Below are positions 33,733 through 36,204 of a stretch of DNA of 64,000 nucleotides, one piece after another. How positions within the stretch are numbered: position 1 is the first letter of the stretch; the number at the start of each line of letters is the position of its first letter. The translations under genes were made by a program, and so were the position numbers. Under the pieces are notes generated by a model. The model made no database searches and had not been told where the DNA came from. It was given only the letters and a program-made list of their open reading frames with translations. The DNA is taken from NCBI RefSeq assembly GCF_057098645.1, contig NZ_CM169472.1; one strand, given 5' to 3'.

Positions 33733-36204
33733 TTAAAAATCAGCCTGACTCGGGATCAGTTTTTGCCAGATAACTGAAACGTATTTTGCCTGATAACGGG
33801 CGTCATCAAGTGCATTATGGCGCTCACCTTCGAATGGAATAGCCGTTCTGGCATCGAAGTCTATGGCTTTCCCCAGCTCAACGATTGTGCGTACATCGCG
33901 ATCGTTGTAGTAACGCCACGGGCAGGGGATCCCCTGCCGTTCGTATGAACGGCGCAAAATCGTGTTGTCGAAGTTGGCTCCATTTCCCCAGACCTGAACA
34001 AAAAATTCACCGGAGTTTTCGTCGATAAATTCCCGCAATTGTAACAGTGCATCATCTAACGGGATTTCATCGGTCATAATGGCAGATTGCGCTTCGCGTG
34101 ATTGCTTAAGCCACCATTTAATGGTGTCCCGATCAATGACTCCGCCAGCAGTTTCCAGATCGATAGTCTTACTAAATTCCGGTCCCATATCTCCGGTTTG
34201 CGGATCGAAAAATATTGCACCTATTGAGATGATCGGGGCATCAGGATTTTTTCCCATGGTTTCAAGGTCGATCATTAGATGGTCACACGTCCTGCTGGTG
34301 GATGTGATTTCTTGATGACCGTTCACCTTAATTGAGTGATCTGCCGTCTCGCCAGTTTCATTATCGCTATCGTGATGCTGATTGCCGCCAGTGTTCTCCT
34401 TGTGTGGATGTTCAGCGCCTTCCATTTTCTCCGGATCATCTTCCTGAACTTCAACCTGATACTCTTCATCGAATGTTTCCTGGTATGTTGCGTCGCCCAT
34501 CACCGCGCCACAATCAGGGCAGTTGCCGCCGCCGGTCTGACCGCAGGCGGTGCAGGCTTTTTCCACTTCCTGTTGCGCCACTGGTTCAGGCTGTTTCGTT
34601 TCTGGCTCGTTTTGTAACGCATTTGGGCTGTTTTGTTCCGCTTTTTGGTAGTTCCGTTCCGATTCATGCTGGTTCTGGTTTACAGAATCGCGGGTCTGGA
34701 TCCCCTTAACCCATTTCGGATCATTCGGGTCGCTAATCCCTGCAACAAATTCTCCGCGAGAGGCAGCAAGCAACTTATCGGCGTCAGGCTGGCTGATATT
34801 GGCTGCCTGCATAATTTTGTTTACTTCGTCAGCGGTAACTTTTACCGGCTCTGGTTGTGCGGTCGTGTCAGATGCACCAGTATTTTGTTGTGAACCTGAG
34901 TATGTACTGTTTTTGCGGGCGAAATATTCTTCTTTCGTGATTTCAGTAGCCCCGGCAGCCAGTGCCTTATCCAGACCAGAAAGTTTGTTTGCGCGACCGT
35001 ATTTTTCGCCATCCTTGTCGGTGAAGAGGAAGTAGAACGGCCCCTCACGCTCTACAGATGGTTCGACTTCCACTTTGCATTCGGTTTTTTCGTTGTCCGG
35101 AATTGCCGTTTCCACTGCATCAGTTTCTGGTACTGGCGACGAGAGAGTATCAGTTGCGCTCTGATTTGTTCCTTCATCTTCAAACACGCCCTTTGTAGTC
35201 AGGTATTCAGTAATGTATTTGTTCAGTGCCACAGGGTCTTTGTGAATGTCGATCGGACGTTCACGGACAAGGCCAAAAATAGTCTGGCGGTCGTAGCGAA
35301 GGGCATCAGGCTGTTTGCGCATTGATGCCGAGATACGCTTCCAGTCTTCGCGGTCGTTGTCGATAACTTCATTTTTTGCCCAGCGATGGATGCTGCCGTC
35401 AATGTTTCCGGCATCCACATCACCAGGCCAGAGAGCGTAGGCCAGTTCGTCATCCAGTGTTTTCCATGTCTGCTTGTATTCGCGATGAATGGCAGCAATG
35501 ACCGGGCTGATTTTTCCTGTTGAATTTTCAGTGTGCTGTTGATTGGTTCTGGCGCGGGCGAGATCAACAACAGACGTGTATTTTCCGGTTTCTTTGCGTT
35601 CACCTTCGCGACGTTTTTTCCAGATGCGCATCTCTGCCTGAATTTCGGGCCATTTGGCACCAGGCTTACATTTATGCTTAACCCACCCGATGGCATGCAG
35701 CTTAAGCTCCGGATACATGGCGTTAACTTCTGGCATTTTCATCAACGCTTCAACGATATGTCCGTCGAATGTTGCCATGTCTTCCTGCAACAATTCCTGT
35801 GCGCTAATAACCATATCAACGGTGATGTTTTCACATGTGTCGAACTTAACCATGACAGCGTTCTGTACTTCAGGGGCCAGCTTGTCAAAAGTGACGTTCA
35901 TCGGATCTGATTCAGTCTCAACCGGAACAAAGGAAGCAGACTCCTCATCCCAGCGGTTTTCCTGCATATATTCAGCATCCCATGAATCGAGGGCAGGGCG
36001 GGGTATGCCAGGTTTATCCTCGCAGATAATAAATTTATAAGCGCAGTCCTGAGCAGCCGGATAATGTTCCAGGAATTGCCAGTGAAATTTTGCTCGAGCA
36101 CGGCGTTCGTCGCCAGCTTCAATAGCTGTGGCTACAGCCACAGCGCCTTCTTCCCTTGTTGCCAGTTCGTCAGGAATGGCGGCGCAAATAAAGACTTTAC
36201 TCAT
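33733..36204 (-). CDS. large early protein with C-terminal DEDDh (DnaQ-like) 3'-5' exonuclease domain and a RecE-like central segment
   Basis: 823-aa ORF; C-terminus carries Exo motifs I (MIDLETMG), II (GNGANFDN) and III (HNALDDARY); central acidic region with a CxxC...CxxC cluster; the segment [35 protein letters not shown] resembles Rac RecE as recalled. Confidence 0.7.
   Translation of the reverse strand: [823 protein letters not shown]

What the first reader, a model, noticed from the sequence alone, without database searches (positions are those of the whole stretch)
33733..36204. Chimeric early protein: RecE-like middle region fused to a DnaQ-type exonuclease, with no RecT partner
The 823-aa protein ends in a clear DEDDh 3'-5' exonuclease domain (DLET, NFDN and H-x4-DDA motifs), which is a different fold from the RecE nuclease. 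Yet it contains a segment ([35 protein letters not shown]) that I recall from Rac RecE, plus a long acidic linker and a Cys cluster. No recT-like annealase gene lies between it and xis. This may be a mosaic recombination or anti-restriction function.
Basis: partly seen in the sequence, partly recalled or inferred. Interest (0 to 1): 0.45.

Follow-up and report, generated by a model that had tools for sequence, protein, structure and literature searches.

The report
Prophage RecE-scaffold protein with DEDDh exonuclease

Summary
Window 33733-36204 (-) is an intact 823-aa ORF. Residues 642-813 form a DEDDh 3'-5' exonuclease (Pfam Rv2179c-like, E=2e-67). All five catalytic residues are present, and the closest solved fold is T4 DexA. 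Residues 262-625 match Rac RecE 278-591. Nucleotide similarity stops at codon ~625, which is the start of RecE's catalytic domain. Residues 1-256 are 98% identical to the K-12 Qin pseudogene YdfE.

No RecT, Bet, Erf or Gam homolog lies anywhere in the window. The gene is the last one of a dicBF operon, just before xis and int.

It is not a one-off chimera. Both head types (YdfE_N, RecE_N) occur with both nuclease types (DEDDh, PD-(D/E)XK). All five DEDDh forms examined lack an adjacent annealase gene. The two close RecE-type forms are followed by recT.

The DEDDh cassette is in 75% of complete E. coli genomes. The RecE-nuclease plus recT cassette is in 32%.

RefSeq, PHROGs and Pfam already describe the gene. 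Its biochemical activity is predicted with good confidence. Its biological role is untested. Verdict: already known, moderate-to-low interest.

The parts
33733..36204 (-). Whole ORF, 823 aa plus stop: full-length YdfE-type 'exonuclease'
   Evidence: PHROG 2082, 823/823; 99.9% identical genes annotated 'exonuclease' or '3'-5' exonuclease'
36215..36218 (-). GAGG Shine-Dalgarno, 10 nt before the ATG
   Evidence: Sequence read
35170..36204 (-). Folded N-terminal head (aa 1-345; Pfam YdfE_N). Three subdomains: aa 1-100 alpha/beta, 105-205 helical, 245-345 helical
34330..35421 (-). Region homologous to Rac RecE aa 278-591 (aa 262-625)
34300..35169 (-). Acidic linker, largely predicted disordered (aa 346-635; Pfam YdfE_C), with short conserved motifs
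   Evidence: AF2 pLDDT mostly below 50; composition; precomputed Pfam names
34909..35052 (-). GPFYF...[20 protein letters not shown] mini-module (aa 385-432); absent from K-12 RecE, present in several family members
   Evidence: (gap in the RecE alignment)
34711..34773 (-). Near-invariant motif [21 protein letters not shown] (aa 478-498)
   Evidence: Present in 20 of 48 long representatives, with either nuclease type; pLDDT about 80
34507..34554 (-). CxxC-x7-CxxC cysteine cluster (C551, C554, C562, C565), a putative zinc ribbon
   Evidence: shared with RecE aa 517-531; low model confidence
34330..34338 (-). Recombination junction (codons 623-625). Upstream the DNA is closely similar to Rac recE; downstream it is unrelated
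   Evidence: DNA alignment
33766..34281 (-). DEDDh 3'-5' exonuclease domain (aa 642-813) with D646, E648, D746, H796, D801
33402..33680 (-). Excisionase gene immediately downstream; nothing lies between it and the exonuclease gene
32315..33433 (-). Integrase; the prophage is inserted next to potC
36328..36674 (-). Upstream genes of the same operon: ydfD-like DUF1482 gene (36328-36543 as an ORF) and dicB (36486-36674)
37723..37774 (-). DicF sRNA, which marks the operon as a dicBF operon
   Evidence: Rfam, 76.7 bits
38854..39261 (-). DicA/CI-like repressor gene of the immunity region
   Evidence: Repression of the dicB transcription unit by DicA is described in PMC11430063

Best explanation
The gene encodes a modular early-left-operon protein of a Qin/Rac-like lambdoid prophage. 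It has three parts.

(1) A folded N-terminal head (YdfE_N, aa 1-345) of unknown function.

(2) An acidic linker of about 290 aa, mostly disordered. It carries a near-invariant [20 protein letters not shown] motif and a cysteine cluster. This is the same non-catalytic segment found in Rac RecE.

(3) A C-terminal DEDDh exonuclease of the Rv2179c/T4 DexA family.

Shown: the gene differs from recE-type genes by a cassette exchange whose left breakpoint lies at the linker/nuclease boundary (codon ~625, equivalent to RecE ~590). In the RecE-type forms the C-terminal nuclease is followed by recT, ralR and rcbA. Here the DEDDh domain takes the nuclease's place and xis follows directly.

Inferred: the protein is a metal-dependent 3'->5' exonuclease. 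It most likely acts on DNA 3' ends, as DexA does. The flexible linker tethers it to a head and motif that do not care which nuclease they carry. It is made when the DicA-type repressor is lifted, that is, during induction or early lytic growth. Without an annealase and with the opposite polarity, it cannot act as a RecET/Red-type single-strand-annealing recombinase. My best guess for its role is processing or destruction of free DNA 3' ends during lytic development. That could mean trimming recombination or replication intermediates, or degrading host or competitor DNA. This last step is the weakest.
For: Architecture: Pfam, NCBIfam and PHROGs; BLASTP against RecE and YdfE; AF2 models.

DEDDh membership: all five catalytic residues are present and invariant in 33 aligned homologs. 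The best solved structural neighbours are T4 DexA 8KEL (E=6e-12), then RNase T, 3'hExo, Orn and Cap18.

Cassette exchange: the DNA alignment breaks at codons 623-625.

Mosaic forms: the same 630-aa N-terminal part at 91-95% identity occurs with a PF12684 PD-(D/E)XK C-terminus in 900-aa proteins. One of these is followed by RecT, Lar, DUF1187, Exc and Int. A RecE_N head identical to K-12's occurs with this DEDDh domain at 99% identity (P0128) and is followed directly by an integrase module.

No annealase: five of five DEDDh forms (the window, P0128, P0122, P0141, P0248) have none downstream.

Not a decaying gene: the cluster holds 23,183 member sequences. The cassette is in 4068 of 5426 complete genomes. 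Isolated phages such as Tritos carry the gene at 94% identity.

Operon placement: the gene sits in the dicB transcription unit, which DicA represses.

Link to DNA-end metabolism: the standalone homolog epsilon34 gp34 (56% identical) lies inside the erf-ssb-abc2 recombination module.
Against: No experiment on this protein was found in the searchable literature.

The Pfam family is named for an exoribonuclease, so DNA versus RNA cannot be decided from sequence.

A 3'->5' exonuclease has no obvious role in annealing-type recombination.

The N-terminal head has no structural or sequence relative of known function, so 'targeting module' is an inference from its co-occurrence with several nucleases.

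Expression only after derepression is taken from K-12 Qin and was not tested for this prophage. This prophage also carries an inserted Rha module in the operon and an IS21 element in its early-right operon.
Confidence: 0.65

Rival explanations
1. It is a prophage-encoded anti-phage defence nuclease of the 'HREX' type. Like the E. coli DexA homologue EcD, it would spare unmodified DNA and digest 5hmC-modified DNA of T-even phages.
For: It belongs to the same DexA family. In the NAR 2025 study, EcD (GenBank HAK9828821.1) cleaved T4 DNA and 5hmC DNA but not unmodified dsDNA, and it protected E. coli from T4 (PMC12153337). The neighbouring gene dicB belongs to an operon already linked to phage resistance (my own knowledge, not tested here).
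Against: EcD is a different protein. It is standalone; its cloning primers show it starts MIDTET and ends TIPETY, and it was not among the 120 closest standalone homologs. The features that paper uses are not clearly present here. DexA D90 aligns with D718, not Ala. W152 aligns with Y766. D169 cannot be aligned reliably. The gene lies inside a repressor-controlled early operon with no promoter-like site of its own just upstream. PADLOC gave no hit.
Confidence: 0.12
2. It is an exoribonuclease like Mycobacterium Rv2179c, trimming RNA 3' ends (host, phage or operon RNAs) and not DNA.
For: The Pfam family is named '3'-5' exoribonuclease Rv2179c-like'. PGAP names many copies '3'-5' exoribonuclease'. 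Structural neighbours include RNase T, Orn, REXO2 and ERI1.
Against: The closest solved relative by sequence and by fold is the DNase T4 DexA. The domain replaces a DNA exonuclease in a DNA-metabolism position. Its standalone homolog sits in a recombination module. RNase T also cuts DNA, so these neighbours do not discriminate.
Confidence: 0.13
3. It is a recombination exonuclease after all, working with host RecA/RecFOR or with a non-adjacent annealase, as a reversed-polarity counterpart of RecE.
For: It occupies the same operon position and has the same scaffold as RecE. The standalone homolog lies next to erf and ssb in epsilon34.
Against: No RecT, Bet or Erf homolog is in the window, and the PHROG scan of the other early ORFs found none. 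3'->5' resection yields 5' overhangs, which known phage annealases do not use (established knowledge of the Red and RecET pathways; review PMC11611040).
Confidence: 0.1

Closest known systems
Rac prophage RecE (exodeoxyribonuclease VIII, 866 aa) with RecT
   Same: Same operon position (late in the early-left operon, upstream of xis and int). Homologous non-catalytic region (aa 262-625 against RecE 278-591), including the [10 protein letters not shown] motif and the cysteine cluster. The heads are possibly remote homologs (hhalign probability 52%, E=1.5e-4).
   Different: The PD-(D/E)XK 5'->3' nuclease domain (RecE ~592-866) is absent and a DEDDh domain stands in its place. There is no recT, ralR or rcbA. 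The N-terminal head is the YdfE type. The NCBIfam equivalog score is 283 against a cut-off of 1269.
E. coli K-12 Qin prophage ydfE (b1577, annotated pseudogene)
   Same: 98% identical over aa 1-256. Same dicB-ydfD-ydfE-(xis)-int arrangement.
   Different: K-12 ydfE is cut off by IS2E after codon ~256. The window gene is the intact 823-codon form.
Phage T4 DexA (PDB 8KEL) and the E. coli homologue EcD ('HREX')
   Same: Same DEDDh subfamily. DexA is the best solved match by sequence (E=1.5e-6) and by fold (E=6e-12, TM 0.65-0.73). The catalytic residues are conserved.
   Different: About 20-26% identity. DexA and EcD are standalone proteins of roughly 190-227 aa, whereas this domain is fused behind a 635-aa scaffold. 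The residues proposed for 5hmC recognition and tetramer formation are not clearly conserved.
Salmonella phage epsilon34 gp34 and the many enterobacterial standalone '3'-5' exoribonuclease' prophage proteins (182-190 aa)
   Same: 50-61% identical to aa 641-823 over the full length. Temperate-phage early-region genes.
   Different: They are standalone. In epsilon34 the gene lies between ssb and abc2 of an Erf recombination module.
Mycobacterium tuberculosis Rv2179c (founder of Pfam PF16473)
   Same: Same Pfam family, matched over the full profile (2-177 of 177).
   Different: Rv2179c is a small chromosomal exoribonuclease, as its Pfam name states. No scaffold and no prophage context.

Membership tests
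DEDDh (DnaQ-like) 3'-5' exonucleases, Rv2179c/DexA subfamily (PF16473) | Profile match above the curated threshold | tested here: met
   226.6 bits against a cut-off of 27, E=2.3e-67, profile positions 2-177 of 177
DEDDh (DnaQ-like) 3'-5' exonucleases, Rv2179c/DexA subfamily (PF16473) | Exo I D-x-E, Exo II D and Exo III H-x4-D catalytic residues | tested here: met
   D646/E648, D746 and H796/D801 are present and invariant in the 33 homologs that cover these columns
DEDDh (DnaQ-like) 3'-5' exonucleases, Rv2179c/DexA subfamily (PF16473) | RNase H-like fold superposable on solved members | tested here: met
   AF2 pLDDT about 90 for aa 636-823. Foldseek top hits are DexA 8KEL (E=6e-12), RNase T, 3'hExo and Orn
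DEDDh (DnaQ-like) 3'-5' exonucleases, Rv2179c/DexA subfamily (PF16473) | Metal-dependent 3'->5' exonuclease activity | not testable with these tools
   Needs a biochemical assay
RecE / exodeoxyribonuclease VIII (NF007259 equivalog) | Full-length equivalog score | tested here: not met
   283 bits against a cut-off of 1269; only profile positions 271-602 of 877 match
RecE / exodeoxyribonuclease VIII (NF007259 equivalog) | C-terminal PD-(D/E)XK nuclease domain (PF12684) | tested here: not met
   No Pfam hit. RecE aa 592-866 finds nothing significant in the window. The DNA is unrelated beyond codon 625
RecE / exodeoxyribonuclease VIII (NF007259 equivalog) | Shared non-catalytic middle region | tested here: met
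   aa 262-625 against RecE 278-591, E=2e-63
Two-component exonuclease-annealase recombinases (Red, RecET) | Adjacent single-strand annealing protein (RecT, Bet or Erf) | tested here: not met
   tblastn of the whole window gave nothing. PHROG scan of the neighbouring ORFs found none. xis follows directly
Two-component exonuclease-annealase recombinases (Red, RecET) | 5'->3' dsDNA exonuclease of the PD-(D/E)XK fold | tested here: not met
   The nuclease is a DEDDh domain
YdfE family (Pfam PF27430 YdfE_N plus PF27432 YdfE_C) | Both domains present | tested here: met
   Precomputed Pfam on the 99%-identical cluster representative P0001 lists PF27430, PF27432 and PF16473; names given. 98% identity to K-12 YdfE. 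These two models are not in the local Pfam copy, so I did not rescore them myself
HREX / EcD-type anti-phage exonuclease (PMC12153337) | DexA-family catalytic core | tested here: met
HREX / EcD-type anti-phage exonuclease (PMC12153337) | Loss of the tetramer-forming Asp (DexA D90 to Ala) with W152 and D169 retained | tested here: inconclusive
   D90 aligns with D718 (not lost). W152 aligns with Y766, where most homologs have W. The D169 loop cannot be aligned reliably
HREX / EcD-type anti-phage exonuclease (PMC12153337) | Selective cleavage of 5hmC DNA and protection from T4 | not testable with these tools
   Needs nuclease assays and plaque assays

The most novel reading that the evidence does not exclude
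The YdfE/RecE N-terminal head, together with the near-invariant [20 protein letters not shown] motif, is a docking platform that is indifferent to which nuclease it carries. It would deliver any of at least four interchangeable C-terminal modules to one cellular or phage target: RecE-type PD-(D/E)XK, DEDDh, a phrog_7838 'exonuclease', or the C-terminal module of phrog_26058, whose function is unknown. That would explain what the ~600 'unknown function' residues of RecE are for. It would also make the DEDDh form, the commonest allele in E. coli, a RecT-independent effector (anti-defence or destruction of competitor DNA) and not a recombinase.
Probability: 0.3. Interest if true: 0.55.

Novelty: already known. 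Interest (0 to 1): 0.3.

Why it matters
The practical gain is clearer annotation. K-12 'ydfE' is the stump of an 823-aa exonuclease gene. Labelling these prophage genes 'exonuclease VIII' is wrong for the DEDDh forms, which have neither the RecE nuclease nor RecT.

Biologically, the RecE scaffold tolerates swaps of its nuclease. In E. coli the DEDDh version is about four times as abundant in copies as the canonical RecE-nuclease plus recT cassette. This gives a comparative handle on the unexplained N-terminal two-thirds of RecE. It also points to a very widespread phage exonuclease that has not been tested.

Tried and rejected

Sequence searches of the PDB with family members that carry other C-termini (P0136, P0126) found nothing. 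Pfam found nothing on eight such proteins.

PADLOC gave no defence-family hit.

I tried to identify the published EcD protein among standalone homologs. None of the 120 closest begins MIDTET or ends TIPETY, so EcD is a more distant relative and I could not compare it directly.

Literature searches for Rv2179c plus phage, ydfE plus dicB, dicBF operon plus exonuclease, and exonuclease VIII plus lambdoid prophages found no functional study of this protein. One search was wasted because 'RecE' matched 'receptor' as a word start. Two searches were rejected for term syntax.

The idea that the gene is a decaying chimera was rejected. The ORF is intact, the catalytic residues are invariant, it occurs in isolated phages, and it is present in 75% of complete E. 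coli genomes.

The 271-aa protein downstream of a divergent PD-(D/E)XK form (P0251) is not RecT by BLAST. It matches only phrog_3657, of unknown function. The pairing of PD-(D/E)XK with RecT is therefore shown only for the two close E. coli forms.
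Full report
**Observation.** The ORF is real and lies exactly where stated: window 33733..36204, minus strand, ATG start, 823 aa. A GAGG Shine-Dalgarno sits 10 nt upstream.

**Domain content.**
- Pfam places a full-length Rv2179c-like 3'-5' exoribonuclease domain (PF16473) at aa 642-813, with E=2.3e-67 and 226.6 bits against a cut-off of 27.
- The NCBIfam exodeoxyribonuclease VIII equivalog matches only aa 246-625, to profile positions 271-602 of 877. It scores 283 bits against a cut-off of 1269.
- PHROG 2082 ('exonuclease') matches end to end, 823 of 823.
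- BLASTP against K-12 RecE aligns aa 262-625 with RecE 278-591 (E=2e-63). From about aa 475 to 625 the two are almost identical.
- Residues 1-256 are 98% identical to the translated K-12 Qin pseudogene ydfE, which IS2E truncates. The window gene is therefore the intact form of ydfE.

**The nuclease domain.**
- The only solved structures found by sequence are 8KEL and 8KEN, 227-aa 'exodeoxyribonuclease' chains. These are T4 DexA.
- An AlphaFold2 model of aa 376-823 gives pLDDT of about 90 for aa 636-823.
- Foldseek puts DexA first (E=6e-12, TM 0.65-0.73), followed by RNase T, 3'hExo, ERI, REXO2, Orn and Cap18.
- D646, E648, D746, H796 and D801 are invariant in the 33 homologs that cover those columns.

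**The rest of the protein.**
- A model of aa 1-375 is confident (mean pLDDT 88). It shows three subdomains: 1-100 alpha/beta, 105-205 helical, 245-345 helical.
- Residues 346-635 are mostly predicted disordered and acidic. One island of moderate confidence lies around aa 476-505.
- That island is the motif [20 protein letters not shown]. It is nearly invariant in 20 of 48 long family representatives, whichever nuclease they carry.
- A recent review states that the N-terminal part of RecE has unknown function. The nuclease domain alone substitutes genetically, and full-length RecE only improves linear-linear recombination (PMC11611040).

**Context.**
- The gene is the last one of a dicBF-type early-left operon. 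The order is: DicA-like repressor (38854-39261), ydfA/B/C, DicF (37723-37774), an inserted Rha-family module, dicB (36486-36674), a ydfD-like gene, this gene, then xis (33402-33680) and int (32315-33433), next to potC.
- In K-12 the corresponding transcription unit is repressed by DicA (PMC11430063).
- tblastn with RecT, Bet, Erf, Gam, Abc2, RalR, RcbA and lambda Exo against the whole window gave only noise.
- A PHROG scan of other early ORFs found replication and regulatory proteins but no annealase.

**Origin as a cassette swap.**
- A DNA alignment of the 3' part of the gene with K-12 recE and with a 900-aa recE-like gene shows close similarity up to codons 623-625 and unrelated sequence after that. 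RecE residue ~590 is where its catalytic part begins.
- Proteins with the same 630 N-terminal residues at 91-95% identity, but ending in a PF12684 PD-(D/E)XK domain (900 aa), exist in E. coli.
- One of them is followed by RecT, Lar, DUF1187, Exc and Int. That is the same order as in Rac.
- Conversely, P0128 has a head identical to K-12 RecE's and this DEDDh domain at 99% identity. An integrase module follows it directly.
- So both heads occur with both nucleases.
- The more distant DEDDh forms P0122, P0141 and P0248 also lack a downstream annealase.
- One divergent PD-(D/E)XK form is followed by a 271-aa protein that is not RecT by BLAST and has unknown function.
- Other members carry C-terminal modules with no Pfam or PDB match.
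- The two head types may be remote homologs (hhalign probability 52%, E=1.5e-4, colinear over 170 columns). I treat this as inconclusive.

**Prevalence.**
- The whole gene matches in 4799 of 5426 complete E. coli genomes.
- The DEDDh-coding part matches in 4068 genomes, at 8107 places and up to 7 per genome.
- The RecE-nuclease plus recT segment matches in 1750 genomes, at 1841 places.
- The scaffold family is narrow. Only 250 cluster representatives among 1.84 billion match aa 1-640.
- RefSeq names the gene 'exonuclease', '3'-5' exonuclease' or '3'-5' exoribonuclease domain-containing protein'.

**Function.**
- The predicted activity is a 3'->5' exonuclease. That is well supported by family membership, but it is not an experiment.
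- DNA is the more likely substrate. DexA is the nearest solved relative. The domain replaces a DNA exonuclease. The standalone homolog epsilon34 gp34 (56% identical) sits between ssb and abc2 in an Erf recombination module, where P22 has abc1.
- RNA cannot be excluded, because the family is named after an exoribonuclease.
- With no annealase and the opposite polarity, a RecET-type annealing mechanism is excluded as a membership claim.
- A 2025 study reports that a standalone E. coli DexA homologue, EcD, cleaves 5hmC DNA selectively and protects cells from T4 (PMC12153337). EcD is a different protein.
- The residues that paper uses are not clearly conserved here.
- This gene sits in a repressed early operon, and PADLOC has no match.
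- I therefore rate the defence reading as possible but less likely than an early-lytic role in DNA-end processing.
- RecE itself degrades retron msDNA and triggers retron toxin-antitoxin systems (bioRxiv 10.1101/2020.06.22.160242). Pressure of that kind could favour nuclease swapping, but this is speculation.

**Verdict.** The object is a known, already annotated and extremely common prophage gene, not a new kind of system. What remains open is its substrate, its role, and the function of the shared scaffold.

Noticed in passing
window 39624-42258: An IS21-family element (istA 39741-41387, istB 41161-42159) is inserted in the ydaT/cII-like gene of the early-right operon. It is absent from the otherwise 99.4-99.7% identical prophage of strain C325, so this prophage copy is probably defective.
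   Followed up: partly
window 36685-37539 (-), with Rfam hits at 37300-37387 and 37412-37488 (-): A Rha-family regulator ORF lies between dicF and dicB. Its 5' region overlaps matches to C4 antisense RNA and the isrK sRNA. In the related genome a dicB fragment is annotated just upstream, which suggests that an antirepressor-type module was inserted into the dicBF operon.
   Followed up: partly
window 34711-34773 (-); also K-12 RecE aa 458-478: The motif LAAxRGE[FY]VxGISDP(N/T)DPKW is nearly invariant across family members that are otherwise 25-35% identical and carry different nucleases. It sits inside a linker that is otherwise predicted disordered. It looks like a docking motif, but no partner is known.
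   Followed up: partly
related proteins P0126, P0129, P0136, P0140 (loci L014, L015): Some scaffold-family members end in C-terminal modules with no Pfam or PDB sequence match: a phrog_7838 'exonuclease' module and the C-terminal part of phrog_26058. In P0136 the next gene encodes a Sipho_Gp157 protein. These are further alternative modules on the same scaffold.
   Followed up: partly
L017 (Salmonella phage epsilon34) 1498-2046: The standalone DEDDh homolog gp34 lies between ssb and abc2 in the kil-arf-erf-ssb-gp34-abc2 module, at the position where P22 has abc1.
   Followed up: no
window 47167-48380 (-), Rfam ALIL at 47983-48099: An IS3-family element with its programmed-frameshift pseudoknot lies inside the prophage.
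   Followed up: no
window 46497-46667 (+); 49365-49554 (+); 49555-49616 (-): The prophage carries a sok antitoxin RNA (hok/sok locus), the sRNA STnc100 and the anti-GcvB sRNA AgvB.
   Followed up: no
E. coli genome collection: The DEDDh cassette (4068 genomes, 8107 copies) is far more common in complete E. coli genomes than the canonical RecE-nuclease plus recT cassette (1750 genomes, 1841 copies).
   Followed up: yes
L013 6565-7380: A divergent PD-(D/E)XK scaffold protein (P0251) is followed by a 271-aa protein that is not RecT by BLAST and matches only phrog_3657, of unknown function. A D12-class methyltransferase gene follows. The 271-aa protein could be an unrecognised annealase.
   Followed up: partly
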